Shown: piece by piece, positions 53,382 through 64,000 of the stretch
Numbering within the stretch: position 1 is the first letter of the stretch
Layout of the letters: every line of letters starts with the position of its first letter
DNA from: an uncultured Methanomassiliicoccales archaeon
Lineage (GTDB): Archaea > Thermoplasmatota > Thermoplasmata > RBG-16-68-12 > JAJISG01
NCBI GenBank assembly: GCA_964347325.1
Contig: CAYFYA010000008.1
Coordinates: 23,719 to 87,718 of the forward strand
Length of the DNA stretch: 64,000 nt
Direction of reading: 5' to 3'
Notes under the pieces: model-generated
What the model saw: only the letters and a program-made list of their open reading frames with translations
Told to the model about the DNA's origin: nothing
Databases searched by the model: none
Translations under genes and position numbers: made by a program

Positions 53382-54656
53382 CTAGAGGAGGATTCTCCGC
53401 CGGCGGAGGAGGTGGTAAGCCACGGTCCCTCCCACCATCCCAATGACGTACCCGTACGGCAGCCCGATGATGATGGCACCCACGAGGAGGGCGATGGTTA
53501 GGTCCAGCTTGCTGTCCTTCACCTTAGCCACCAGCTTCACCAGGGCGAAGCCCTCAAAGACCAGAAGCACCCCGAGGATCGGGAAGGGGAAGACCTTCAC
53601 CACCTCGAAAATCACCCCACTGAAGAAGAGGCCGAGGACGAGGAAGATCGCACCGTAGATTACCACCGAACCGCCGGTCCGGGCGCCGAAGCGGTAGTGT
53701 CCGGCCATGCCGCCAGAGCCATGGCAGACGGGGACACCGCTGGCGAAGGGCGCTGCCAGGTTCATCAAGGAGTAGGTGAGTCCGATTCTGCGTGGCGTTA
53801 CGTCCACTCTCTGCGGGAAGTAGTCGCGGACGAGGTAGGCCGTGGCCACAATGGAGTTCGCTATGGAGAGCGGGATCTGGGGAAGGGCCAGCTGGATCCC
53901 ACCTTGGACGATGTCATTGATGGAAGGGACGTTGAACTTGGGCAGGGCGAATCCCACCCCGCCCAGGACGGCGCCGGAGTCGAATCCCTGGAACAAGGCG
54001 AGGCCGACTCCGGCGGCAATGAGTATGAGGGCAGGGGGGAATCTGCTCCCCCGTCCCAGGAAGAGCACCACGAGGATCCCGGCGAAGGCGACGACGTAGC
54101 CAATGATCGCCTCCCCCAGGGGAGCCCCGGGCTGCAGTATGAACCCGAAGGCGATGAGCATGAGCGTCAGGCCCAGGCCCAACTGGATGCCTCGGACGAC
54201 GCCTGGCGGGATGACCCTGTGAATCCAGTCGATGGAACGTGTCAGCACCAGGGCTAGCATCACCGCCCCGACCACGAGGCCGCCTCCGTAGAGCCAACTC
54301 GCCGAGGCGCCGGGGCCCAGTGCTATCATTATGGCGGCCATCGCCTTCAGGGGCTGCACGGGCATAGGGAGGCCATATCGGAGGGCCGTGAGGATCTGGA
54401 AGACACCGAACATCACAAAGGTGCTCGCCGCGTCCAAGCCGTTGATCGCCACCATCGCCAGGATGAGGGGCAGGTCCGTGCCGATATCGCCGAAGGCGCC
54501 GGCGATCTCTCCCCGGTTGAACAGGACCCGAGGTGCCTGGGGAGCCGCGGTCACGGGAGTCCACGATGGATTCCTCTCTAATAATATCGAGGTCCTCCTT
54601 GGGTCACGACTCGAGGACGGCCTTCCCACCAGTCTCCTTATGGGGAGCTTCCCCAC
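53382..54656 (-). CDS. MOT1-family (MFS-like) molybdate transporter with two internal repeats
   Basis: 'AGAFGDIGTDLPLILAM..GLPMPVQPLKAMAAI' closely matches the conserved MOT1 'GDLGTYIPI...PMPVQPMK' motifs. The start is uncertain. Confidence 0.6.
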   Translation of the reverse strand: MGKLPIRRLVGRPSSSRDPRRTSILLERNPSWTPVTAAPQAPRVLFNRGEIAGAFGDIGTDLPLILAMVAINGLDAASTFVMFGVFQILTALRYGLPMPVQPLKAMAAIMIALGPGASASWLYGGGLVVGAVMLALVLTRSIDWIHRVIPPGVVRGIQLGLGLTLMLIAFGFILQPGAPLGEAIIGYVVAFAGILVVLFLGRGSRFPPALILIAAGVGLALFQGFDSGAVLGGVGFALPKFNVPSINDIVQGGIQLALPQIPLSIANSIVATAYLVRDYFPQRVDVTPRRIGLTYSLMNLAAPFASGVPVCHGSGGMAGHYRFGARTGGSVVIYGAIFLVLGLFFSGVIFEVVKVFPFPILGVLLVFEGFALVKLVAKVKDSKLDLTIALLVGAIIIGLPYGYVIGMVGGTVAYHLLRRRRILL

Positions 54657-54976
54657 TTCGACGGGTAGCCGACGATGGCAACCGAGGTGTTAGTCGCCGT
54701 CATAACCGTATTCGATGCTCCACGAAACACCTTGCTAGCCCTTCCGCCCAATACCACCAAGCCAGCCTGGTCAAGGTGTTCCACATCGCAGCTCGCACGT
54801 CGAAATGTCGAAACCTAAACGGCGGTGGGGCCGGTGTCGAACAGGGTGACCTCGTGGTCGTGACCATGACTTCCTTAGCACGACCCACGTGGCCCACTTG
54901 GAGACCACCTTGGTCCTGCCTCATGCACGCCCTGTGACGGCGCTCTGGGGGAGTTCGATGCAATCCAGAGGTGGGC

Positions 54977-56392
54977 CTACTGAGTTGGTGTCAAAACACG
55001 GCAGTCGGAGCAATAGCGGTTGAGCACTGGAATCAGCGAGGTATACTCCTCTCCTAGAAGCTCGCCGACCCTCTCCAGCATTGCCTGGGGTGCTATCGGA
55101 GCCCCACATCTCTCACACGTGGGCGTGGCATCGCGATGGAGGGCGATTCTGCCTTGGTTCAATCGGCCGAGGTCCACAGTCTTGACGAGTCGAATCGCGC
55201 CGCGATGTCTCTCCGGGCACGGTGGGATACAGATACCGCAGGCCACGCACTTCATGGCATCGAACGTCAGGAAGACTCCTTCCACCTCGCTCCCATAGAC
55301 CAGGGCGTCTGTGGGACAGGCTTCTGCGCACATGCCACAAGTTGTGCAAGCCTCCCCGATTTCCACCACTCCCAGGGGCGATCGCTCGTGGGCGACGGTG
55401 ACTTCCTCCCCGCCGAACAGGTGCGCCAAAACCCTCAGGATTTCCGGAATCGCTTCATGACCAAAGGGCCGATCCAAAGATACCGGGGTCACGCCACGCG
55501 GCGGGTCCTGACTCAGGTCTGGGCCCAACAATACGAGATCCTCCGGGGCCCCGAGACTGGCGAGGAAATCCCGACAGAAGGCCACAGTCTCGGCGATCTT
55601 GTCCGCCTGACCTGCGGGGCACTCGATGGGACATCCCTGAATACCGACCGTACCCGCCCCCATCAGGAGAGGAGCGAGCATCCAACCCGGCGTCGCCATG
55701 CCCGCGCAAGGGAGTCTGAGCGGCATCCATCCCTCTGCGCCCTGCGGTGCGGGAGAGTGTGCACAATGGTACACGATGCCACGAGGCCCGTTCTCTCCAG
55801 AGATGAGGGCACCTACCTGTGCCTCCAACTGTGCGGGCGTGGTCGTGGGGTCGTGAACGGCTCCACACGGACAAGCAGTAACGCAGATACCGCAGGGTTC
55901 ACAGGTCGACTTGTCGAATCGAATCCGCCCCTCGGACCACTTGAGGGCACCCTGGGGACACACCTGGGTGCATACATTGCATCCGCCGCCGGCCGCACAA
56001 GCGGTACGGTCTACGGACGGGACTGCCCGATATTCGGTCCACCTGAGTCCGAACAAGGACCTCCTGCCGATCCTGGAGGATCTGTAAATCTTGGAGTGTT
56101 CAGGGCGGCTGCCGGCGAAGGCCCTCGCCCTCGCCACGGCGGCTGCCAAGAGGACCTTGCCCCTTTCCGGGGTGGCCTCCCCCAGGTGAACGATCTCTAC
56201 CCCCAGGGGATCGAGACCCGCCTTTCTGACCTCCGGCTGCAGTTCCGCCAGTGAGTAGTTCTTCGAGCAGAGGCCAAGGACCAGACGATCGACTTCCTTG
56301 CCGGCAAGGAGCTCGCTGGCTGTCCCCAAACGTTCGCATAGGTTCGGCACAACCTGGACTTCTGTGTGGCTCTCGCCTCCCCACTCAAGCAC
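54977..56392 (-). CDS. Iron-sulfur protein with multiple 4Fe-4S ferredoxin motifs and MvhD-like domain(s)
   Basis: Ferredoxin motifs 'CTTCGMCAEACP', 'CVACGICIPPCP', 'CEPCGICVTACP' and 'CNVCTQVCP'. MvhD-like 'VYHCAHSP...RLPCAGMATPGWMLAPLLMGAGTVGIQGCPIECPAG'. Confidence 0.65.
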   Translation of the reverse strand: MLEWGGESHTEVQVVPNLCERLGTASELLAGKEVDRLVLGLCSKNYSLAELQPEVRKAGLDPLGVEIVHLGEATPERGKVLLAAAVARARAFAGSRPEHSKIYRSSRIGRRSLFGLRWTEYRAVPSVDRTACAAGGGCNVCTQVCPQGALKWSEGRIRFDKSTCEPCGICVTACPCGAVHDPTTTPAQLEAQVGALISGENGPRGIVYHCAHSPAPQGAEGWMPLRLPCAGMATPGWMLAPLLMGAGTVGIQGCPIECPAGQADKIAETVAFCRDFLASLGAPEDLVLLGPDLSQDPPRGVTPVSLDRPFGHEAIPEILRVLAHLFGGEEVTVAHERSPLGVVEIGEACTTCGMCAEACPTDALVYGSEVEGVFLTFDAMKCVACGICIPPCPERHRGAIRLVKTVDLGRLNQGRIALHRDATPTCERCGAPIAPQAMLERVGELLGEEYTSLIPVLNRYCSDCRVLTPTQ

Positions 56393-56414
56393 ACGAGAGC
56401 TGCTCTCGCTCTCC

Positions 56415-57128
56415 TCACAGAGAAGTACGGTCGTCTCGATGTTCGTAGTCAGCCTCCTTGATTAGGAAGCTCAAGTAGTCCTGGTCGTGCCCTATGAAGG
56501 CGTCGGCGGTCTTGACGATTGCCCTGTAGAACGGTTCCTTCGTGGCATTCACGACGATCTCCGCGAACCTGGAGAACCAGGTGCCAAGGTGTTGCTCCAA
56601 GAAAACGAGCTCCTCTTTCACAGTCTCCTGGGCCTTTCCGAGGCCGCCATCCTTCCAGGCTTCCGCCTCCCTCTCGCAGAGGAAGGCCATCGCATCCATT
56701 TCGATGGACACGTGATCGGGCAGACCCTTGTAATCGGTGGGCAGGTCGAGACCCATCCTGGCATACTCTCCATCCAGCTGGGTGATTATAGCTGTTCGTA
56801 GGCCGGGCGGGGCACGGTAATATGACTCGTGGGGATGACAGATAGGACCCCGCGGACCCACGGAGAAGAGCCTCACATGCTCTTGCTGGATTTTCTTGGC
56901 GCTGTTCAGGCCCTGAAACGCTTCTCTTAGCGCTGCCCAGCTCGGATAGAATGCGAAGTCAGCCAAGTGGCGATCATCGAGGCGTTGCAGGGCGTCCTCA
57001 AGCAAAGCTACACGCTTCCCCTCAGGGTAGAGGAGGCTAGTCGCGAGGAAACGGTAGAGTCCGTGGCGGAGCTGCGCTAGCGCTCCCCCATCCAGCTCAT
57101 TCTCCAGAACTTTCCGGTAGGATTTCAT
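56415..57128 (-). CDS. TorD/DmsD/NarJ-family molybdoenzyme maturation chaperone
   Basis: All-helical 237-aa protein with a TorD-like N-terminus 'LAQLRHGLYRFLATSLLYP'. Located inside the molybdoenzyme operon. Confidence 0.6.
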   Translation of the reverse strand: MKSYRKVLENELDGGALAQLRHGLYRFLATSLLYPEGKRVALLEDALQRLDDRHLADFAFYPSWAALREAFQGLNSAKKIQQEHVRLFSVGPRGPICHPHESYYRAPPGLRTAIITQLDGEYARMGLDLPTDYKGLPDHVSIEMDAMAFLCEREAEAWKDGGLGKAQETVKEELVFLEQHLGTWFSRFAEIVVNATKEPFYRAIVKTADAFIGHDQDYLSFLIKEADYEHRDDRTSL

Positions 57129-57315
57129 AGACCACCGCTGACAGGAACATGACTAGGAAGCCGAGGATGAAAATACCTGGAGCGAACGGAACGATTGGGT
57201 TGCTATGATCGACGTTGCTTGGGGGGAAGCCCCAAGGGGCTGCGAAGTAGAAATAGCTCACGATCATGAGCGCTGCACCGACAACGATGAGGAGAGCAGT
57301 GAGGAGTCTACGCAT
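57097..57315 (-). CDS. Small 2-TM membrane protein with a conserved 'PWGFPPS' motif (72 aa from 'MRRLL', preceded by a GGTGA RBS)
   Basis: Overlaps both the NrfD gene and the TorD gene. A paralog lies at 62697-62912. Confidence 0.5.
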   Translation of the reverse strand: MRRLLTALLIVVGAALMIVSYFYFAAPWGFPPSNVDHSNPIVPFAPGIFILGFLVMFLSAVVYEILPESSGE

Positions 57316-58627
57316 CTGTACTATCACCTCCATCTGACATGGTTGTTCTTTCTTCTGGCAAGGGCATAATCGGGAAGAGCTTCATGAAGAGGCCGATGAG
57401 GAGGGCTCCGAAGGCGAAGAGACCGACAATGATCCCGTATTCCACCCAGGTGGGCGTGTATACGCCTATCTGGTACGGGAGAAGGCTCCCGTGAGTGAGC
57501 GAGGGTACGACAACGATGTACCGTTTGGCGATGGCGGCGACGTTGACCATCAGTCCGATCGCCACGAGCACGGGGATGCTCCATCGGCCAGTCAGGGCAA
57601 GAGTGACGATTAGGAAGAGCGGAATGACCAAGAATGCGACGGAGAGCCAGTAGACCCCCGCATACTCGCCGAAGAGGAGAGCGTTCACCAGAAGTGTTTC
57701 TTGAGCGTGCCCTTGGTAGGTCGCCGTAAGGAGCTCGACGAGCATGAAGTACAGATAGACCGCGATGAGGACCATCAGGTACTTTCCGAGGGATTTGAAT
57801 ACGTCGCCATTGATGTTTCTCTTCTCGCCCATGGACCAGCGCGCGATGGCAATAAGAACGATGAGTGCCCCGAGCCCGGAGATTCCCGCCAACACCACGA
57901 ACGCAGGAGCCTGCAGGGCGCTGTACCAACCTGGTCGTCCCGCCTGAAGCCCGAAGACGAGGCCCAGCGTAGAGTGGGCGGCCACCAGAATGGGGATGAT
58001 GGCCACGGCGAGCCAGAAGCTGACCCGACGATGTCGCTTCTGCTCTTCGGGAGTATCGCGATATCCAGCCGCCAAGAAGCGATGGAGTCTTTGCAGACGA
58101 CCTGGTGTCTTCGCGAGAACGGCGGCATCCTTCCTGCTGTCAAGGTAGAGGTAAGTCAGGCTTGCCAGAAGGTAGCCGGCGATGACTAGAACGAAGGTCC
58201 CGAAGAAGGGGGACTGCGGGCGAGCGTATGTGAAGAGGTTGACGATCCCGACGAGAGGGCGACCAAGATCGGGTATCACGGCAAAGGTGGCGAGGATTAG
58301 AGCAACGACAGTCAGCACTTCCGCGATCCGGGCCACTGGGCGAAGATGCTTCAGATCGAGTAGCCTGATCATGGCTGCCATCGTGATGCCCGCGAAGCTG
58401 ATCCCGACGAAGTAGATGTCGAAGGATATGTAGAGGCCCCATGGGGAACCTCCCATCGTTCCTGTGTCCCTCAGACCAGTGACGACTAATCCGAAATTGA
58501 CCTGGACCAACCAGGCAATGAAACCGAACAGGGCAACCGCGGCGGAGACCAACATGAAGATGATCCAACGCCAGGTGAGCCTGCCGACGCCGTACGGCAA
58601 ACGTGCCACAGCAACTTCAGCCGTCAT
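57308..58627 (-). CDS. NrfD/PsrC-family polysulfide-reductase-type membrane anchor subunit
   Basis: Eight to ten TM helices. Its start codon overlaps the stop of the upstream FeS-subunit gene (ATGA at 58624-58627). Confidence 0.8.
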   Translation of the reverse strand: MTAEVAVARLPYGVGRLTWRWIIFMLVSAAVALFGFIAWLVQVNFGLVVTGLRDTGTMGGSPWGLYISFDIYFVGISFAGITMAAMIRLLDLKHLRPVARIAEVLTVVALILATFAVIPDLGRPLVGIVNLFTYARPQSPFFGTFVLVIAGYLLASLTYLYLDSRKDAAVLAKTPGRLQRLHRFLAAGYRDTPEEQKRHRRVSFWLAVAIIPILVAAHSTLGLVFGLQAGRPGWYSALQAPAFVVLAGISGLGALIVLIAIARWSMGEKRNINGDVFKSLGKYLMVLIAVYLYFMLVELLTATYQGHAQETLLVNALLFGEYAGVYWLSVAFLVIPLFLIVTLALTGRWSIPVLVAIGLMVNVAAIAKRYIVVVPSLTHGSLLPYQIGVYTPTWVEYGIIVGLFAFGALLIGLFMKLFPIMPLPEERTTMSDGGDSTDA

Positions 58628-59367
58628 AGTGTGACCTCCTCTTTCACCCTTTCAATCTGTCTCATCTCGATATTAGGCGGAGACCCCGCGAGGTAGAAGA
58701 CGCTGGGATCAGTACCCACCTCCTCCAGCAGCTGGAAGTGCGGCTTCTCCACGAGCAACCTGGACACCTCGCTGTCCGGATCTTCGGCGTCTCCGAAGTG
58801 GAGGACGTGGGTTGGACAGGTCTCCACGCAGGCGGGCAACAGTCCCTTCTCGACCCGTTGCACGCAGAAGGTGCACTTCTCGATGACACCCTTGTAGTGG
58901 CCGCCACCCGCGATGCGCCGCTGCTCCGGGCCGAACGCAGTGTCCAGATCGGGATTCTTGTAAGGGGGGACCGCGCCCTCGCTGACTCCCGCCAGATCGG
59001 GATCGTCCCATGCCAAGTAGTAACTCCTCACAGGCTCCTTCCAGTTGAAGTAGTTCACGCCGTAGGGACAGGCCACCTCACAGTACCGGCAGCCAATGCA
59101 GCGGTCCCAGTCCGTGGCCACGAGCCCGTCGATTCGCTTGTAGCGGGCCCCGACGGGACACACCTTCACACAGGGCGCGTTATCGCAGTGCTGACAAGGC
59201 CTGGGGAAGAACGAGATGCGCGTGTCTGGATAGGTCCCCTCCTCAAGGCGCCACACGTACATCCAGAAGTTCGCCTGGGGGGTGTTGTTCTCCACCTTGC
59301 ACGCTTCCATACAGGCGCGGCAACCGGTACATCGATCGAGGTCGATCGTCATGACGTACTTGGCCAT
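58624..59367 (-). CDS. 4Fe-4S ferredoxin-type electron-transfer subunit (PsrB/DmsB-like)
   Basis: 'CTGCRACMEACK', 'CQHCDNAPCVKVCP', 'CIGCRYCEVACP' and 'CTFCVQRV'. Confidence 0.9.
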   Translation of the reverse strand: MAKYVMTIDLDRCTGCRACMEACKVENNTPQANFWMYVWRLEEGTYPDTRISFFPRPCQHCDNAPCVKVCPVGARYKRIDGLVATDWDRCIGCRYCEVACPYGVNYFNWKEPVRSYYLAWDDPDLAGVSEGAVPPYKNPDLDTAFGPEQRRIAGGGHYKGVIEKCTFCVQRVEKGLLPACVETCPTHVLHFGDAEDPDSEVSRLLVEKPHFQLLEEVGTDPSVFYLAGSPPNIEMRQIERVKEEVTL

Positions 59368-61955
59368 CAGTCCTCACCCCCTGCCTTGGAGACCTGAACC
59401 TTCACGTGATATGACTGATCCGCCGTGTTGGAGACGTAGCCCTCGCCGGTGAAGAAGAGCTCGTTGGGTGAGGGACCCTGCCCGTCGTTCGTGGGGTTCC
59501 TCCACATTCCGAAGTGGTGGGGCATGCCCACAGTGTCCGGTCGAATGCTTTCAACGAGGGTCGCTCGCACCTTCGCCCTCCTCGTTTCCCCCGTCACAGC
59601 GTTCTGGGCTTCGACCCAAACCAGGTCCCCTTCGCGGATGCCCCGCGCCCGGGCGGCCTCCGGATTCATGTCGAGCCGCTGCTCCGGGGTCAGTTCCGCC
59701 AGAAGCGGGATGAAGCTGGTCCGGGACTGCTTGTGCTCGATGAGCTTGTAGCTGATCAGGTAGAGGTCGTAGGCCGACGGGGACCCCTCCATCGTGGGAT
59801 CTCGCCACACGGGGAACGGCGTGTAGTCCTGCCAGTAGATCTGCTCCACGCCCTTCGCCTTCATCTCATTCTGGTACCGCAGCAGGCTCTCCCCGTAGAG
59901 GCGGTGCAGGGCGCCCCCGAAGGGCGGGCCGGCGGCGTAGCCGTATCGCGCCGAGGGGGACAGGGGCCCCTTGATCCACACGCCGTTGTTCTCGAAGAAT
60001 TCGATTCCACCGCTCAAGCCTTCCATCAAGGACCATTGATGGAAGATGTCGCGGACGGAAGGCTTCGTGTCGAGGTCGAGGAGATACGGATCTTCGAGCC
60101 CTACCGCAGCATTGATCCGATCGATGTAGCCTCCGACTCCATAGAGGACACCCATCTTCTCGGCGAGATCCAGATAGATGTCGATCTCCCCCCGCGATTC
60201 GAAGAGGGGATCCATCGGCGGGAGACGAAGCGTCTTGGCGTCGATGTACTGGTCCGATACGGAGCTGACGCCCTCGTACTTCTCGATGGTCGCCGCTGGC
60301 AGCACGACATCGGCGAAGTAGTCTGCGGTCTCTGACAGCCACGGATTGATGTCGACGACGAAGTTGAGCTTCTTGTACGCGTCAATGAAGTCCTTCTGAG
60401 AGAGGAAGGAGGTGAGGGGATTGGCCATGTGCAGAATCATCACTTCCGGCAGGTCGTCTACCCCGTACTTGGCGGGATCGAGCATGACCTTGGCCGCGAC
60501 GCCAGGGAGGGCCGAGTTGATCGGGTAGAACTTGCTATTCTTGAGGTAGAAGTTGTACGGGGGGTCCCCAATCGTAATCTCATCTAGGCCCGCATAATTG
60601 CTGTGAATCTTCCAGGTGAAGTCAATCATGGTGCCCCCTACCGCTCCCATGGCTCCGAGGAGCATTTCGACGAGGATCATGGCCCGAAGCGCCTGGAATC
60701 CGAGCTCTTGCTGCGCCATGTGATAGGCCATGATGGCGACGGGTCGGTAGGGGATGTCCTCCCCCTCCAGGTTAATCGTGCTGCCGATTAGGGCGTTCTC
60801 GCCCATTTCGAGGGCCACTTGTCTGATTTGCGCCGCCGCGACGTCGCAGACTCCCTCCGCCCATTCGGGGGTGTACGAGGCCACGTGCTCTGTGAAGAGC
60901 TGGAAGGCGGGCTTAACAGTCTCGGCGCCGACCGTGTACTCACCCTCTAGGGCGGGCACAGCGGCCGGGTCATCATGGTCCATTGGAGCTGAGGTCACCG
61001 TGTCCCAGACCTGCTCCTTGTCGCCAACCCGATAGAAGGAGCCGTCCTCCCCCACCAGGAAGGGCGCGTTAGTGTAGGTCGAGAGGTAGTCCGTGTCCAC
61101 ATACCCGTTCGCAATCAGCACGTTGCAGAGAGCCAGGGCCAGCGCCATGTCAGTCCCGGGTTTGATGGGAAGCCAGACGTCCGCAAAGTGGCCGGCACTC
61201 CGGAGTCGCGGGTCGATATGAACCACCTTGATGCCCCGCTCCCGGGCCTCCATGAGTTGCTGAGGCCAGGTGATCCAGCAGAACTTGTTTCCGCCCGCAT
61301 TGGTGATGTTCCATCCCCAGGAGAGGAGGTAGCGGGTATACTTGAAATCGGGATGGAGCACCCCATGCGGTCCAATGGTGTACTCCGCCGCTCGATAGCC
61401 GGCGTCGGAACAGTAGCCGCCGTGGCCTAGCTTGCTGGCGCCTATCGCCCCGACAAAGGCCGTATCGTAGAAGGCACCGGCCTTGCTCCTTCCTTTCTGC
61501 CAGAGTACGAGACTCGGGTCGCGATCCCTTACCGTGTTGACTTGCTGCGCCACGAGGTCGAGGGCTTCGTCCCAGGAGGCTTCCCGCCATTGGCCGGTGA
61601 CGCCTTTCTCGTTCGTCCGGATGAGAGGGGTCTTGACCCGGTTAGGGTCATAGAACGCCATAATCTGTGCCTGGCCCTTGGGACAGAGGGTGCCGAGGTT
61701 CCTCGGATGGTCTGGGTGACCCGCAAGGGACACCACCCTGCCGTTGAGTCTCCGGGCGATCATGCCGCATTCCTGCTTCCCTATCCAGCAAGTTGTGGGG
61801 ACGAAATCCTCGGTCGCAGGGGCGGCATCCTTGGGGGTGGTGGGTCTCAGAATCGAGGGAATGCCCAGGTTCCAAGGCGAGACTTGGGTTGCGATCGCGG
61901 CGCCCGCGGCGGTGGCTCCACTCAGCTTCAGGAACGTTCTTCTCGAATGTTTCAC
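59367..61955 (-). CDS. Molybdopterin (bis-MGD) oxidoreductase catalytic subunit with a Tat signal; Psr/Phs/Ttr/Arr clade
   Basis: Tat motif 'SRRTFLKLSGATAAGAAIA'. FS0 region 'CWIGKQECGM...GRVVSLAGHPDHPRNLGTLCPKG'. 862 aa. Confidence 0.9.
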   Translation of the reverse strand: MKHSRRTFLKLSGATAAGAAIATQVSPWNLGIPSILRPTTPKDAAPATEDFVPTTCWIGKQECGMIARRLNGRVVSLAGHPDHPRNLGTLCPKGQAQIMAFYDPNRVKTPLIRTNEKGVTGQWREASWDEALDLVAQQVNTVRDRDPSLVLWQKGRSKAGAFYDTAFVGAIGASKLGHGGYCSDAGYRAAEYTIGPHGVLHPDFKYTRYLLSWGWNITNAGGNKFCWITWPQQLMEARERGIKVVHIDPRLRSAGHFADVWLPIKPGTDMALALALCNVLIANGYVDTDYLSTYTNAPFLVGEDGSFYRVGDKEQVWDTVTSAPMDHDDPAAVPALEGEYTVGAETVKPAFQLFTEHVASYTPEWAEGVCDVAAAQIRQVALEMGENALIGSTINLEGEDIPYRPVAIMAYHMAQQELGFQALRAMILVEMLLGAMGAVGGTMIDFTWKIHSNYAGLDEITIGDPPYNFYLKNSKFYPINSALPGVAAKVMLDPAKYGVDDLPEVMILHMANPLTSFLSQKDFIDAYKKLNFVVDINPWLSETADYFADVVLPAATIEKYEGVSSVSDQYIDAKTLRLPPMDPLFESRGEIDIYLDLAEKMGVLYGVGGYIDRINAAVGLEDPYLLDLDTKPSVRDIFHQWSLMEGLSGGIEFFENNGVWIKGPLSPSARYGYAAGPPFGGALHRLYGESLLRYQNEMKAKGVEQIYWQDYTPFPVWRDPTMEGSPSAYDLYLISYKLIEHKQSRTSFIPLLAELTPEQRLDMNPEAARARGIREGDLVWVEAQNAVTGETRRAKVRATLVESIRPDTVGMPHHFGMWRNPTNDGQGPSPNELFFTGEGYVSNTADQSYHVKVQVSKAGGED

Positions 61956-62073
61956 AATCCGACCTCCCTCTCAGCTGCATTGTGAAGGAAGACGTGACAC
62001 GGCCGTCTTCCCGCTATCGTAATGGCCCCGTGTATGCGCGTGGGATGGGTACGGCGCTTGGACCCTAGAGACA

Positions 62074-62277
62074 TCAGAGATCCTCCATGACCGCCTCAAT
62101 GGTCTTCTGCAACTGGGAAATCAGTTCCGCCTCGGAATCCCTCAAGGATTCAATCAGCCCTCCCATGCCTTTCGGGACGTCCCGTTCCAGGGCCTGGTTG
62201 CACACACTTAGCCCCCTCATCCTTGAGTCGAGGAGTTGTCTCAGCAGCTGGAGTTCAACTTCCTTGCTCATGGGCAA
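62074..62277 (-). CDS. Small helical protein B1 (67 aa), paralog of 63069-63287
   Basis: About 45% identity to B2, sharing 'SRM.GL..CN..LE....K.....LIE.LRD.EAELIS.LQ.TI..VME'. Confidence 0.5.
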   Translation of the reverse strand: MPMSKEVELQLLRQLLDSRMRGLSVCNQALERDVPKGMGGLIESLRDSEAELISQLQKTIEAVMEDL

Positions 62278-62503
62278 TTTCCTCCAGGATTTGCTCCAAC
62301 GCTTGGAGAATCTGGGTCGTCTGCCAAAGGGTGGTTCGAACGATCTCCGCTGTCATCTCTCTTATCTCTGGGTTCTCGATGCTGTCTCCTAGGTATGCAC
62401 AGATGATGGAGAGGGACTGAACCTCACACTCCTCGAGAAATCGCGATAAGGCCGCCGTCGAATCCAGCACCTTGTGGGTAGCTGGAACTGTATCCCCGTT
62501 CAA
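62255..62503 (-). CDS. Small helical protein A1 (82 aa), paralog of 63259-63498; overlaps B1 by 23 nt
   Basis: About 35% identity to A2, sharing 'H.V....AL.....E.C..QSL..IC.YL.D....P.IR.M'. Confidence 0.5.
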   Translation of the reverse strand: MNGDTVPATHKVLDSTAALSRFLEECEVQSLSIICAYLGDSIENPEIREMTAEIVRTTLWQTTQILQALEQILEEIAHEQGS

Positions 62504-62546
62504 TACAATCGCGGAAGGTAGAAAGGGTCTTTGCTGTTGCGTATGG

Positions 62547-62560
62547 AATTTATATAAATT
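62547..62560. promoter_or_regulatory. Perfect 14-bp palindromic TATA element AATTTATATAAATT upstream of A1
   Basis: About 45-50 bp upstream of the A1 start at 62503, in a 190-bp intergenic gap. Confidence 0.4.
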
Positions 62561-62696
62561 ATGTAACCATAATTGGCGAAGATTACGTACAGCCTTCCGC
62601 GGCAGAGCCTCCAGTGGGCGAAGAGTTCACTGGCCAGGCGGTCTCTGGAGGGACCGATGAATCCCCGGATCGCCTGACCTCGCCCTCCAAGGCCGC

Positions 62697-62912
62697 TTAT
62701 GCTGGCCTCTTTCCCGGCAAGACCTCAAAGGCCACAGCCGCTAGCCACATCAGGACTCCCCCGATGATGAACAAGAGGGGGGCGAAGGGGAGCCGTGGAT
62801 CACTGTGCTCAACGCCGCTTGGGGGGAAACCCCACGGTGTTGCGAGGACGAAGAAGCTGACGACGACGAGAACAGCGCCGATGACTAGCATGCATGAGGC
62901 ATACGTTTTGCG
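62697..62912 (-). CDS. Small 2-TM membrane protein with 'PWGFPPS', paralog of 57097-57315 (72 aa from 'MRKTY', GGTGA RBS)
   Basis: Shares 'VGA.LM.VS.F..A.PWGFPPS.V.HS.P..PFAP..FI.G..M...AV..E.LP' with the operon copy. Confidence 0.5.
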   Translation of the reverse strand, partial: RKTYASCMLVIGAVLVVVSFFVLATPWGFPPSGVEHSDPRLPFAPLLFIIGGVLMWLAAVAFEVLPGKRPA

Positions 62913-63068
62913 CATTTCAGTCACCTTCACTCAAACTCTCTTTCAATTGGGAGGAGGGGAAAGAGGTGGCATAGAGGCCCACTTCATAAGAGAGGAGCGT
63001 GCCGAAGATCTGGGATGGGAAGACGATAAGGTCTTGGCGGGGATACGAGAAGGGAACGCCCACGCCGA

Positions 63069-63287
63069 TCAACCCTCCTCCATCACCGTGGCAATCGTCC
63101 TTTGGAGCCGGGAGATGAGTTCGGCCTCTTCGTCCCGGAGTGTCTCAATCAGCTGTCTCAGGGGCTTGTCAACCGCCCCCTCGAGGACATCGTTGCAGAT
63201 TTTGAGTCCAGACATCCTCGATTCCAGTACTGATCTCAACATTGCCAACTCCTCTTGGCTACCTGTCATCCATACCCTCCAGGGCAC
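63069..63287 (-). CDS. Small helical protein B2 (72 aa)
   Basis: Paralog of B1. Confidence 0.5.
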   Translation of the reverse strand: MPWRVWMTGSQEELAMLRSVLESRMSGLKICNDVLEGAVDKPLRQLIETLRDEEAELISRLQRTIATVMEEG

Positions 63288-63498
63288 TCCGGACCTGCTT
63301 GAGAGTGAGACTGGTCTGCCTCACGGAGGCCCTGAGAACATCCTCCAGCATGCCTCTGATCTGCGGATCCTCCACCCTGTCCTTCAGATAGTCACAGATG
63401 GTGGCGAGCGACTGGATTCCGCAGTCTTCGGTGAGCTTGAGTAGTGCTTGATGGGGTGAGGCGACCTCATGATCAGAAGATGCTAGGCTTCCGCACAC
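63259..63498 (-). CDS. Small helical protein A2 (79 aa); overlaps B2 by 29 nt
   Basis: Paralog of A1. Confidence 0.5.
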   Translation of the reverse strand: MCGSLASSDHEVASPHQALLKLTEDCGIQSLATICDYLKDRVEDPQIRGMLEDVLRASVRQTSLTLKQVRSALEGMDDR

Positions 63499-63576
63499 GA
63501 GAAATCGATGCGGAGCCGTCCTCTTGGCTTTTGTTTGTAGAAAGTATGGAAATTGCAGAAGGCCTGCAGAGGGCCG

Positions 63577-63987
63577 TCACTTCTGGGTTGTGGACCCCTG
63601 GAAGGATATCTCTGCCACAGTGGTGACGAGCCGGGCCATTCTTCGCAGCAACTCAAGCACGTTGCCGACAGCCAGGCATGCTGCGCATCCCAGCTTGCCC
63701 GTAGCCGGCTTGGCAACGAACTCCCGGACCTCTTTGATTCTCTCCTCAAGGATCGGGAGGGAAGAAATGCAGTCCGTGGCGCTCCTCAGATCCCCTCTCG
63801 TGAAGGCGAAGAGGCCCTTGTCGGACATGGAGATGACCGAGTTTCCGATCTCCACGCACTCCAAGAGGGCGGACCTCGGGACTTTCAACTTGTCGAGCTC
63901 CGCCAACATGTCGAGGATGTCGCGACACGTCCAGGCCATGGCTTTCAGGTGCTGGGCGGTCAGGGCATAGGCGGGGGAGTCAGCCAC
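63577..63987 (-). CDS. Hypothetical protein (136 aa) with several Cys residues
   Basis: ORF only. Its start lies close to the window end. No motif recognised. Confidence 0.3.
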   Translation of the reverse strand: MADSPAYALTAQHLKAMAWTCRDILDMLAELDKLKVPRSALLECVEIGNSVISMSDKGLFAFTRGDLRSATDCISSLPILEERIKEVREFVAKPATGKLGCAACLAVGNVLELLRRMARLVTTVAEISFQGSTTQK

Positions 63988-64000
63988 ATCCAGATTCAGG

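What the first reader, a model, noticed from the sequence alone, without database searches (positions are those of the whole stretch)
62074..63498. Tandemly duplicated pair of small overlapping genes (A/B) that flank a paralog of the small 2-TM protein of the molybdoenzyme operon
Two diverged copies (about 35-45% identity) of the same overlapping two-gene unit occur back to back on the minus strand. Gene A is 79-82 aa and gene B is 67-72 aa, and the two overlap by 23-29 nt. Each protein is predicted to be all-helical and keeps a single conserved Cys: 'IC(A/D)YL' in A and '(V/I)CN..LE' in B. A copy of the 72-aa 'PWGFPPS' 2-TM protein sits between the two pairs; its paralog is embedded in the Psr/Ttr-like operon directly downstream on the same strand. 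I cannot assign the A/B proteins to any family known to me. Co-duplication with a membrane subunit of a respiratory complex suggests an accessory module for that complex, for example a sulfur/persulfide or metal relay, or an assembly or regulatory factor. A toxin-antitoxin-like or other selfish origin cannot be excluded.
Basis: seen in the sequence. Interest (0 to 1): 0.7.

Follow-up and report, generated by a model that had tools for sequence, protein, structure and literature searches.

The report
Orphan helical-hairpin gene pair heading molybdoenzyme operon
Two small overlapping genes for acidic helical-hairpin proteins are the conserved first genes of a polysulfide/thiosulfate-reductase-like operon in a narrow group of uncultured Thermoplasmata archaea; the second copy upstream is what remains of a whole duplicated operon that lost its enzyme genes.

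Summary
A1/B1 (63259-63498, 63069-63269) and A2/B2 (62255-62503, 62074-62271) are diverged paralogous pairs (A 36%, B 59% identity). They flank C1, a 50%-identical paralog of the operon's 2-TM protein. The layout is not a co-duplication of A/B with a membrane subunit. It is a relic of a tandem duplication of the whole operon (A-B-psrA-psrB-nrfD-C). Window 62917-63072 is the fused leftover of the copy-1 B-psrA spacer and the nrfD1 tail. A sister MAG still has both operons intact, and two other lineages lost psrA1-psrB1-nrfD1 with different breakpoints while keeping A1, B1 and C1. A and B are real genes (dN/dS about 0.05-0.4). They are acidic, cytoplasmic and predicted to be two-helix hairpins. 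They match no Pfam, NCBIfam, PADLOC or PDB family, and the B family has only 3 cluster representatives among 1.84 billion. In all 23 related loci B follows A and precedes psrA or its remnant. A frame-conserved, sequence-unconserved bridging ORF chains B to psrA translationally. The Cys residues are not invariant (replaced by Y, W or S). My best reading (about 0.4) is a heterodimeric four-helix-bundle accessory or maturation factor for the Tat-exported enzyme. Toxin-antitoxin and sulfur-relay readings are disfavoured.

The parts
63577..64000 (-). 3' part of the regulator gene (AbrB/SpoVT DNA-binding domain plus a weakly PhoU-like, Cys-rich helical domain; about 343 aa in full). It is cut by the window end and always lies directly upstream of the first A gene.
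   Evidence: tblastn to the L010 regulator at 58% identity over residues 204-337. The full-length L010 orthologue hits PF04014 at 6.7e-13, TIGR01439 at 1.3e-8 and PhoU TIGR02135 at 0.007. Five Cys are invariant.
63545..63554 (-). Conserved promoter/operator-like motif AATTTCCATA upstream of A1.
   Evidence: AAWTTCCATA occurs only twice in the 64 kb window, upstream of A1 and of A2 (expected 0.04). It is conserved upstream of A genes in most other lineages; L004 A2 and L017 carry one- and two-base variants.
63259..63498 (-). A1: 79-aa acidic protein, the faster-evolving paralog of A2. The start codon is uncertain (GTG).
   Evidence: dN/dS is 0.25-0.31. pI 4.9.
63069..63269 (-). B1: 66-aa acidic two-helix hairpin protein. 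It overlaps A1 by 11 nt.
   Evidence: Against the sister MAG there are 11 synonymous and 0 non-synonymous differences. AF2 model with pLDDT 93.4, helices 2-30 and 35-65.
62917..63072 (-). Deletion scar. The ORF begins at a TTG overlapping the B1 stop. It fuses the copy-1 B-psrA bridging ORF (LIGVGVPFSYPRQD) in frame to the tail of nrfD1. The deletion junction is near 63029/63028 (ACCT microhomology), and a second 72-nt deletion lies near 62963. The ORF ends 2 nt before the C1 ATG and contains the C1 Shine-Dalgarno.
   Evidence: Constraint is relaxed: dN/dS 0.67 versus 0.12-0.15 for the intact nrfD1 C-terminus.
62697..62915 (-). C1: 72-aa two-TM protein (PWGFPPS motif), paralog of C2. It is the last surviving gene of operon copy 1.
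   Evidence: 50% identity to C2. Searches show it follows intact nrfD1 in L011 and L016.
62542..62558 (-). Promoter of operon copy 2: the TATA-like TTTATATA (62551-62558) abuts and overlaps by one base the AAATTCCATA motif (62542-62551).
62255..62503 (-). A2: 82-aa acidic two-helix hairpin protein, the first cistron of the intact operon.
   Evidence: AF2 model with pLDDT 80.6, helices 8-41 and 45-81. dN/dS 0.05-0.43, and 0.05-0.22 excluding comparisons with L010.
62074..62271 (-). B2: 65-aa acidic two-helix hairpin protein. It overlaps A2 by 17 nt.
   Evidence: dN/dS 0.10-0.25.
61952..62074 (-). Bridging ORF of 40 codons. Its ATG overlaps the B2 stop (TGATG) and its TGA overlaps the psrA GTG (GTGA). 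The frame is conserved across lineages; the peptide is not. It contains the hairpin GGGAAGACG-N9-CGTCTTCC at about 61986-62012.
59367..61955 (-). PsrA/PhsA-like molybdopterin oxidoreductase catalytic subunit with a Tat signal.
   Evidence: PF00384, PF01568, PF04879, PF10518; the best NCBIfam hit is PhsA at 251 bits, below the cut-off.
58624..59367 (-). PsrB-like 4Fe-4S subunit.
57308..58627 (-). NrfD/PsrC-like membrane anchor.
57097..57315 (-). C2: 72-aa two-TM protein of the intact operon.
56415..57128 (-). TorD/NarJ-family chaperone.
   Evidence: PF02613, 6e-22.
54977..56392 (-). Cytoplasmic polyferredoxin (471 aa).
53382..54656 (-). MOT1-type molybdate transporter.
   Evidence: PF16983, 1e-50.

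Best explanation
What it is (shown; confidence about 0.85-0.9):
- A and B are the first two cistrons of a Psr/Phs-like molybdoenzyme operon. The gene order is regulator | A-B-bridge ORF-psrA-psrB-nrfD-C-torD-polyferredoxin-MOT1.
- The operon occurs in a narrow clade of uncultured Thermoplasmata (Methanomassiliicoccales-related).
- The unit A-B-psrA-psrB-nrfD-C(-torD), with its own promoter motif, was tandemly duplicated.
- In the window's lineage a microhomology-mediated deletion removed psrA1-psrB1 and most of nrfD1. What is left is A1-B1-scar-C1 in front of the intact copy.

How it most likely works (inferred; about 0.4):
- A and B are acidic, cytoplasmic alpha-hairpins made in 1:1 amounts through translational coupling.
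- They pair into a heterodimeric four-helix bundle.
- Their synthesis is chained, through the bridging ORF, to that of the Tat-exported catalytic subunit.
- The bundle acts in the cytoplasm on the pre-export enzyme as an operon-specific assembly or escort factor (cofactor loading, or signal-peptide/precursor holding), alongside the TorD-like chaperone.
- It can act in trans, which would explain why A1/B1 are kept after their cis enzyme genes were lost.
For: Real coding genes under purifying selection:
- dN/dS is about 0.1-0.25 for B and 0.05-0.43 for A.
- B1 in the window versus the sister MAG shows 11 synonymous and 0 non-synonymous changes.
- There is no rate acceleration in the deleted lineage.
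- The adjacent nrfD1 scar has dN/dS 0.67.

Strict synteny:
- In all 23 related loci B is preceded by A and followed by psrA or its remnant.
- The regulator always lies just upstream of the first A.
- Gene order holds where dS is saturated.

Duplication and deletion history:
- Intact double operons exist in L007+L011 and in L016 (with L018/19).
- The breakpoints differ in the window, L002 and L005.
- The A1 identity matrix places intact lineages between the deleted ones.
- This implies at least 3 independent deletions, each sparing A1, B1 and C1.

Shared promoter motif: it is found only upstream of A1 and A2 in the window.

Translational chaining:
- A/B overlaps have a Shine-Dalgarno inside A.
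- The bridging ORF is open in every lineage.
- All spacer lengths (58, 118, 121, 130, 133) equal 1 mod 3.
- The probability of an open frame after shuffling is 0.13-0.36 per long spacer, and the other two frames are closed.

Fold: both proteins are predicted as two-helix hairpins. The closest structures are hairpins that oligomerise into four-helix bundles, namely ESAT-6/CFP-10, EsxEF, encapsulated ferritins and designed hairpin dimers.

Location: A/B are acidic (pI 4.3-4.9) with no signal peptide or TM segment, whereas PsrA has a Tat signal. Any action on the enzyme must therefore be cytoplasmic and before export.
Against: - There is no direct evidence that A binds B or PsrA.
- The operon already encodes a TorD-family chaperone, so a second escort system is not obviously needed.
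- All loci come from one narrow clade (PsrA at least 67% identical) and a few metagenome projects. Synteny may therefore partly reflect shared ancestry.
- The AF2 models rest on alignments of only 6-8 sequences, and hairpin fold matches are statistically insignificant (Foldseek E at least 0.19).
- Retention of A1/B1 after loss of psrABC1 fits a regulatory role as well as a trans-acting assembly role.
Confidence: 0.42

Rival explanations
1. Regulatory module. The A/B heterodimer is a co-sensor or anti-regulator that binds the neighbouring AbrB + PhoU-like, Cys-rich regulator, or otherwise tunes expression of the operon. It would not act on the enzyme.
For: - A/B always sit between the regulator and psrA.
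- Being acidic, they could not bind DNA themselves but could bind a basic DNA-binding domain.
- A1/B1 are kept under purifying selection after their cis enzyme genes were deleted in three lineages.
- The regulator has five invariant Cys, suggesting a sensing function.
Against: - A/B are duplicated with the enzyme genes and their promoter, not with the regulator.
- They are translationally chained to psrA through a frame-conserved bridging ORF. This implies production in step with a bulk respiratory enzyme rather than at regulator levels.
- There is no detectable homology of A or B to the regulator.
Confidence: 0.17
2. Permanent cytoplasmic subunits of the mature complex. A/B would dock on the cytoplasmic face of NrfD and the 2-TM C protein, for example as an adaptor towards the cytoplasmic polyferredoxin.
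For: - Co-translation with the structural genes.
- C (a membrane protein) and A/B are retained together in all deletion derivatives.
- The operon encodes a cytoplasmic polyferredoxin that needs a docking site.
Against: - A diverges much faster than the enzyme subunits: A1/A2 are 36% identical versus about 80% for PsrA1/PsrA2 and 56-59% for NrfD.
- A1/B1 persist without NrfD1.
- A/B have no redox-cofactor motif.
Confidence: 0.13
3. Cys-based sulfur/persulfide or metal relay, or a ferritin-like half-bundle that binds metal at the A/B interface.
For: - Each A keeps at least one Cys, and all but one B keep a Cys.
- B gives weak hits to ferritin-like bundles: DUF2383 E=0.048, the designed diiron protein 2lfd E=0.085, and encapsulated ferritins among the top Foldseek hits with TM 0.8-0.9.
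Against: - No Cys is invariant. The substitutions are Tyr, Trp or Ser at positions that follow the hydrophobic periodicity, as expected for core residues rather than ligands.
- B contains no His. In the HMMER alignment to 2lfd, B has Arg opposite a Glu of the designed protein, and the position 3 residues before the one opposite its His is variable. Reading these two Glu/His positions as metal ligands rests on my knowledge of the DF design and was not tested here.
- All these hits are statistically insignificant.
- The catalytic subunit works outside the cytoplasm, so a cytoplasmic substrate relay makes little sense.
Confidence: 0.06
4. Toxin-antitoxin or other selfish two-gene cassette that happened to insert next to the operon.
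For: The pair is small, overlapping and duplicated.
Against: - No Pfam, NCBIfam or PADLOC TA or defence hit.
- Only one genomic context in all loci.
- It shares the promoter motif and translational chain with psrA.
- Both proteins are acidic helical hairpins with no nuclease or toxin fold.
- The family is confined to one clade: 3 representatives in 1.84 billion.
Confidence: 0.02

Closest known systems
Redox-enzyme maturation proteins of Tat-exported molybdoenzymes (TorD/DmsD/NarJ family; NapD)
   Same: - Small cytoplasmic proteins encoded inside the operon of a Tat-dependent molybdoenzyme.
- napD and napF precede the catalytic gene napA (established knowledge).
- Expected to act before export.
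   Different: - No sequence match to PF02613 or any other family.
- The operon has its own TorD-like gene.
- TorD is a roughly 200-aa all-helical globule and NapD is a beta-alpha fold (established knowledge). A/B are two separate 65-82-aa alpha-hairpins.
WXG100 pairs (ESAT-6/CFP-10, EsxE/EsxF)
   Same: - Adjacent, co-expressed genes for helical hairpins of about 70-100 aa that form a 1:1 four-helix bundle.
   Different: - No W-x-G turn motif.
- No type VII secretion context.
- Archaeal and cytoplasmic.
Encapsulated ferritin / ferritin-like half-bundles (EncFtn, DUF2383)
   Same: - The B hairpin superposes with TM 0.8-0.9.
- B gives weak HMM hits to ferritin-like bundles.
- These proteins also need a partner hairpin to complete a four-helix bundle (established knowledge).
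   Different: - No His and no ExxH motif. Positions aligned to candidate metal-ligand residues of 2lfd are Arg or variable in B.
- No encapsulin neighbour.
- E-values are 0.05-0.3.
dmsE of the haloarchaeal dmsR-dmsEABCD locus
   Same: An archaeal CISM operon with a regulator gene followed by an extra gene, dmsE, ahead of the catalytic subunit (operon named in PMC1971269). That dmsE is small and uncharacterised is my recollection, not tested here.
   Different: It is a single gene, not a pair.
Type II toxin-antitoxin pairs
   Same: Two small overlapping genes.
   Different: No family hits, a fixed context, both proteins acidic hairpins, and part of the operon's translational chain.

Membership tests
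TorD/NarJ/DmsD redox-enzyme maturation proteins (PF02613) | Significant match to the Nitrate_red_del / TorD profile; all-helical protein of about 200 aa. | tested here: not met
   A1, A2, B1 and B2 give no PF02613 or NCBIfam TorD/DmsD hit even at E<=10 / 0.1. The operon's own 237-aa protein does (6e-22).
NapD-type Tat signal-binding chaperone | Beta-alpha-beta ferredoxin-like fold. | tested here: not met
   AF2 predicts only two long helices for both A and B.
WXG100 (EsxA/EsxB) | W-x-G motif in the hairpin turn. | tested here: not met
   The turns read GDSIENPE / KDRVEDPQ in A and EGAVDKPL / ERDVPKGM in B. No WxG is present.
WXG100 (EsxA/EsxB) | Heterodimeric four-helix bundle of two hairpins from adjacent genes. 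| not testable with these tools
WXG100 (EsxA/EsxB) | Type VII secretion gene neighbourhood. | tested here: not met
   The neighbours are the regulator, psrABC, torD and Moco biosynthesis genes.
Encapsulated ferritin / ferritin-like diiron bundle | Conserved Glu in helix 1 and an ExxH in helix 2 that bind iron. | tested here: not met
   B has no His. In the alignment to the diiron design 2lfd, the candidate ligand positions correspond to Arg17 and a variable residue in B.
Encapsulated ferritin / ferritin-like diiron bundle | Significant profile or fold match. | tested here: not met
   DUF2383 E=0.048, 14.3 bits against a cut-off of 30.8. Foldseek E>=0.19.
Type II toxin-antitoxin system | Match of at least one partner to a toxin or antitoxin family. 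| tested here: not met
   No Pfam, NCBIfam or PADLOC hit.
Type II toxin-antitoxin system | Occurrence in varied genomic contexts or on mobile elements. | tested here: not met
   All 23 loci show the same position at the head of the psr-like operon.
Psr/Phs-type complex iron-sulfur molybdoenzyme operon (context of the finding) | Tat-signal molybdopterin subunit + four-cluster FeS subunit + NrfD anchor. | tested here: met
   PF00384/PF01568/PF04879/PF10518, Fer4_11 and NrfD. Substrate specificity is not assigned: PhsA scores 251 bits against a cut-off of 694.

The most novel reading that the evidence does not exclude
A and B are a previously unrecognised class of molybdoenzyme-specific accessory factor. 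In this reading a translationally chained heterodimer of alpha-hairpins forms a four-helix bundle that holds or matures the Tat-exported PsrA precursor. It would be unrelated in fold to TorD/NapD chaperones and able to act in trans, which is why it survives repeated loss of its own enzyme genes.
Probability: 0.3. Interest if true: 0.55.

Novelty: new variant of a known kind. Interest (0 to 1): 0.42.

Why it matters
- If A/B are assembly or escort factors, they add a structurally new type to the short list of proteins that mature Tat-exported molybdoenzymes. They would also be the first such candidates specific to archaeal Psr-like enzymes in the poorly known non-methanogenic relatives of Methanomassiliicoccales.
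- The locus is a clean natural experiment. A whole respiratory operon was duplicated, and in at least three lineages it was independently gutted of its catalytic genes. The small accessory genes and the translational chain were preserved each time.
- The frame-conserved but sequence-free bridging ORF between B and psrA is a compact example of selection on the act of translation rather than on a peptide.
- The reach is limited. The family is confined to one narrow uncultured clade, and nothing here establishes a biochemical function.

Tried and rejected
- **Family searches.** Pfam, NCBIfam and PADLOC scans of A1, A2, B1, B2 and C gave nothing significant.
- **PDB sequence search.** Profile searches against PDB sequences returned only noise.
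- **Homologue searches.** Word-index searches with B1, A2 and an A profile found 5, 3 and 8 proteins, all from the same clade. An exhaustive HMMER search with the B profile over 1.84 billion representatives found 3 true members. Its 3 other hits are HEAT-repeat, glycosyltransferase and coiled-coil proteins and are spurious.
- **Internal homology.** hhalign of A versus B gave probability 5.8%. A or B versus the regulator gave probability below 1%. There is no detectable relationship.
- **A:B model.** The afdb50 fold library was unavailable.
- **RNA families.** An Rfam scan of 61700-64000 gave no hit, so no Moco riboswitch or other known RNA is present.
- **Stem-loop after C1.** It is not better than shuffles (z=-1.0).
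- **TorD remnant.** A search for a TorD remnant between C1 and A2 in the window found none.
- **Literature.** Psr/NrfD-type operons have been noted in basal Methanomassiliicoccales relatives, but the one paper checked returned no passage on small upstream proteins.
Full report
**1. The observation**

On the minus strand the window carries, in transcription order, the following genes.

| Element | Coordinates | Notes |
|---|---|---|
| Regulator (3' end) | 63577-64000 | Cut by the window end |
| A1 | 63259-63498 | 79 aa |
| B1 | 63069-63269 | 66 aa from an ATG preceded by GGAGGG; the longest ORF reaches 63287 |
| 51-codon ORF | 62917-63072 | See section 2 |
| C1 | 62697-62915 | 72 aa |
| A2 | 62255-62503 | 82 aa |
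| B2 | 62074-62271 | 65 aa |
| 40-codon ORF | 61952-62074 | See section 5 |
| Psr-like operon | 53382-61955 | See below |

The operon proteins are identified by Pfam and NCBIfam:
- a molybdopterin subunit with a Tat signal (59367-61955);
- a 4Fe-4S subunit (58624-59367);
- NrfD (57308-58627);
- C2 (57097-57315);
- a TorD-like chaperone (56415-57128);
- a polyferredoxin (54977-56392);
- a MOT1 molybdate transporter (53382-54656).

The paralog identities are:
- A1/A2: 36%, E=4e-18;
- B1/B2: 59%, E=6e-22;
- C1/C2: 50%, E=2e-28.

Three details need correcting:
- B is more conserved than stated.
- The overlaps are 11 and 17 nt with the likely starts. They are 29 and 23 nt only for the longest ORFs.
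- The conserved Cys residues do not hold up in orthologues (section 4).

**2. Why the pairs flank a copy of the 2-TM protein**

The stretch between B1 and C1 is not spacer.
- Its translation matches the C-terminus of NrfD. Against the window's own NrfD the match is weak (E=2e-4).
- It is clear through an intermediate. The 81-aa ORF at the same place in L002 is 52% identical to NrfD residues 351-433 (E=1e-27) and matches the window ORF at E=2e-12.
- In L004/L005 the ORF at this place is the PsrA Tat leader (59% identity to PsrA residues 1-32) fused to the last residues of NrfD.

A Methanomassiliicoccales MAG carries a B1 that is 100% identical in protein to the window's, and it still has the ancestral state.
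- Contig L007 reads regulator-A1-B1-psrA1-psrB1-nrfD1.
- Contig L011 reads nrfD1-C1-A2-B2-psrA2.
- L016 (with L018/L019) shows the same intact double operon.
- L010 and L017 have a single operon with A-B at its head.

The 'duplicated pair flanking C' is therefore the remains of a tandem duplication of the whole unit A-B-psrA-psrB-nrfD-C (plus torD in the L004 lineage). The enzyme genes of copy 1 were then deleted.

**3. The deletions are recurrent**

Aligning the window with the intact L007/L011 sequences locates the junction at about 63029/63028.
- On the left it lies 20 nt before the psrA1 start.
- On the right it lies at the nrfD1 codons for 'LIVVPSQ'.
- The two ends share a 4-nt ACCT microhomology.
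- A second 72-nt deletion lies near 62963.

The other lineages have different breakpoints.
- L002 retains about 10 more spacer bases and more of nrfD1 (from about residue 345-351 of 439).
- L005 retains 32 psrA1 codons but only about 25 nrfD1 codons.
- Neither of these can be derived from the other.

The A1 identity matrix gives:

| Lineage | Operon copy 1 | A1 identity to the other A1 sequences |
|---|---|---|
| Window vs L007 | deleted vs intact | 91% |
| L018 | intact | 68-70% to the window/L007 pair |
| L003 | deleted | 53-63% |
| L004 | deleted | 27-38% |

The deleted lineages are thus separated by intact ones. At least three independent deletions removed psrA1-psrB1 and most of nrfD1, and each stopped short of B1 and of C1 with its ribosome-binding site.

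The scar itself is decaying. Its dN/dS is 0.67, against 0.12-0.15 for the intact nrfD1 C-terminus. The flanking genes are not decaying:
- B1 in the window versus L007 has 11 synonymous and 0 non-synonymous differences.
- A1 has dN/dS 0.30.
- Neither shows extra non-synonymous change in the deleted lineage when measured against an outgroup.

**4. What A and B are**

*Real genes.* Both are under purifying selection across lineages where dS is at or near saturation. dN/dS is 0.10-0.25 for B, 0.05-0.43 for A and 0.12-0.24 for C.

*No family assignment.*
- They have no significant hit in Pfam, NCBIfam, PADLOC or PDB sequences.
- The source databases give them no name.
- Word-index searches of 5.8 billion proteins returned 5, 3 and 8 members.
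- An exhaustive HMMER search with the B profile over 1.84 billion cluster representatives found three true members and three spurious repeat proteins.
- Scans of GTDB genomes and JGI metagenomes recovered only the same clade. These are an 'uncultured Methanomassiliicoccales archaeon', a 'Thermoplasmata archaeon' and contigs of two metagenome assemblies.

*Predicted structure.* AlphaFold2 predicts each as a two-helix hairpin.
- A2: helices 8-41 and 45-81, pLDDT 80.6.
- B1: helices 2-30 and 35-65, pLDDT 93.4.
- The alignments behind these models are shallow.

*Physical properties.* Both are acidic (pI 4.3-4.9) and lack signal peptides or TM segments.

*Internal relationships.* A and B are not detectably related to each other (hhalign probability 5.8%) or to the regulator.

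*Ferritin-like hints.* Three weak signals for B point to ferritin-like bundles:
- DUF2383, E=0.048;
- the diiron design 2lfd, E=0.085;
- encapsulated ferritin (EncFtn) folds among the top Foldseek hits.

However, B has no His. The positions aligned to candidate ligand residues of 2lfd are Arg or variable in B. I therefore do not place B in that superfamily.

*The Cys residues.*
- The A 'IC.YL' Cys is Tyr or Trp in P0009, P0011 and L010.
- The A 'E[DE]C' Cys is Ser in P0012.
- The B Cys is Tyr in P0005.
- These positions follow the hydrophobic periodicity of the helices.
- I infer that they are core residues rather than catalytic or ligand Cys.

**5. How A/B are wired to the operon**

*Promoter motif.* AAWTTCCATA occurs exactly twice in the 64 kb window, upstream of A1 (63545-63554) and of A2 (62542-62551). 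The chance expectation is 0.04. At A2 it abuts a TTTATATA box. It is conserved upstream of A genes in most other lineages; L004 A2 and L017 carry one- and two-base variants. The promoter was therefore duplicated with the unit, and the regulator was not.

*A-B coupling.* B starts inside the 3' end of A, behind a Shine-Dalgarno sequence.

*Bridging ORF between B and psrA.*
- In every lineage one frame is open across the whole spacer.
- It begins at a start codon overlapping the B stop (TGATG or TTGA) or, in L007, at a GTG 6 nt downstream in the same frame.
- It ends in a TGA overlapping the psrA start (GTGA or ATGA).
- The spacers are 58, 118, 121, 130 (two unrelated sequences) and 133 nt. All equal 1 mod 3.
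- The encoded peptides are unrelated between lineages.
- The other two frames are closed in all the long spacers.
- The probability of an open frame after dinucleotide shuffling is 0.13-0.36 each.

*Coupling in the deletion derivatives.* In all three, a stop-free frame likewise runs from the B1 stop to just before the C1 ATG. In the window this frame is the bridging ORF N-terminus (LIGVGVPFSYPRQD, compare L008/L023) fused in frame to the nrfD1 tail.

*Downstream genes.* In the window, successive genes from psrA to torD overlap by 1-32 nt.

*Inference.* The cluster is a translational chain A -> B -> bridge -> PsrA -> PsrB -> NrfD -> C -> TorD. A and B are made in step with the catalytic subunit.

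**6. Mechanism**

Shown:
- the operon position of A/B;
- co-duplication with the enzyme genes and promoter;
- purifying selection;
- the cytoplasmic, acidic, hairpin character of both proteins;
- the coupling architecture;
- retention after loss of the cis enzyme genes.

Inferred:
- A and B pair 1:1 into a four-helix bundle.
- PsrA is Tat-exported, so any action on the enzyme must occur in the cytoplasm before export.

My best reading (about 0.4) is an operon-specific assembly or escort factor working beside the TorD-like chaperone and able to act in trans on the remaining enzyme.

Rivals:
- a regulatory partner of the neighbouring AbrB + PhoU-like regulator, which has five invariant Cys: about 0.17;
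- a permanent cytoplasmic subunit or adaptor for the polyferredoxin: about 0.13;
- a Cys or metal relay: about 0.06;
- a toxin-antitoxin pair: about 0.02.

Nothing here tests binding.

**7. Comparison with known systems and novelty**

- Functionally the nearest kind is the redox-enzyme maturation proteins (TorD/DmsD/NarJ, NapD). A/B fail every membership feature that could be tested.
- Architecturally the nearest analogue is a WXG100-type hairpin heterodimer, but the WXG motif and the secretion context are absent.
- The haloarchaeal dmsR-dmsEABCD locus (PMC1971269) is a loose precedent for an extra gene ahead of the catalytic subunit. I could not compare sequences.
- Psr/NrfD-type operons have been noted in basal Methanomassiliicoccales relatives. 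A term search of that preprint returned no passage on small upstream genes (bioRxiv 10.1101/2020.03.09.984617).
- I rate the finding as a new variant of a known kind (operon-encoded accessory proteins of molybdoenzymes), carried by an orphan family.

**8. Verdict**

An accessory module of the operon is plausible. The specific argument from co-duplication with a membrane subunit and the Cys-relay idea are not supported.
- Interest is moderate (0.42). The evolutionary story and the bridging ORF are clean and testable. The family is confined to a narrow uncultured clade, and its biochemical function remains inferred.

Noticed in passing
window 61952-62074 (-); also L002 2544-2666, L004 7572-7706, L010 10180-10320, L017 4087-4221, L007 3619-3675, L016 2581-2709: A bridging ORF links the B stop to the psrA start. 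The frame and both overlaps (usually TGATG or TTGA at the B end; GTGA/ATGA at the psrA end) are conserved in all lineages. The spacer lengths (58, 118, 121, 130, 133) all equal 1 mod 3, while the peptides are unrelated. This looks like selection for translational coupling rather than for a peptide.
   Followed up: yes
window 62917-63072 (-); junction about 63029/63028; second deletion near 62963: This is the scar of the psrA1-psrB1-nrfD1 deletion, with a 4-nt ACCT microhomology. The copy-1 bridging ORF is fused in frame to the nrfD1 tail, so an open frame still runs from the B1 stop to the C1 start. The two other, independent deletion derivatives (L002, L005) also keep such an open frame.
   Followed up: yes
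window 62542-62551 and 63545-63554 (-): The motif AAWTTCCATA occurs only at these two places in 64 kb (expected 0.04), upstream of A1 and A2. It is conserved upstream of A in most related lineages, with one- and two-base variants in L004 A2 and L017. It is a candidate promoter or operator element. At A2 it abuts a TTTATATA box (62551-62558).
   Followed up: partly
window about 61986-62012 (-): The hairpin or inverted repeat GGGAAGACG-N9-CGTCTTCC lies inside the bridging ORF, about 30 nt upstream of psrA. It is conserved in the window, L011 and L002 but not in L004 or L010. Folding gives -14.2 kcal/mol, z=-1.8. Its role is unknown; it could be a stability or attenuation element or a protein-binding site.
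   Followed up: partly
window 63577-64000 (-); full length in L010 8639-9670: The regulator directly upstream of A1 combines an AbrB/SpoVT domain with a weakly PhoU-like helical C-terminal half. That half carries five invariant Cys, including a CxxC. It is a possible redox- or metal-sensing transcription factor for the operon.
   Followed up: partly
L004 6139-7051 and L005 5952-6864: In this lineage the gutted operon copy also keeps a second TorD-like chaperone gene (43% identical to TorD2) after C1. All accessory genes (A1, B1, C1, TorD1) therefore survive, and only the three enzyme genes were lost.
   Followed up: partly
L004 1-3570; L018 241-597: Upstream of the regulator, these genomes carry the 3' end of another, distantly paralogous gene set (TorD-like 31% and polyferredoxin 27% identical, plus MOT1 at 67%). 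Whether that operon also starts with A/B-like genes could not be seen, because the contig ends there.
   Followed up: no
A1 versus A2 across loci: The single-copy A of L010 is closer to A2 (44-49%) than to most A1 copies (30-33%; 42% to L004 A1). A1 orthologues also diverge faster than A2 orthologues. Copy 1 of A is therefore the fast-evolving paralog, whereas B1 stays highly constrained.
   Followed up: partly
L001 and L002 (regulator gene and C1 region): Runs of N (masked or unresolved sequence) interrupt the regulator and C1 in these contigs. C1 of this lineage could therefore not be evaluated.
   Followed up: no
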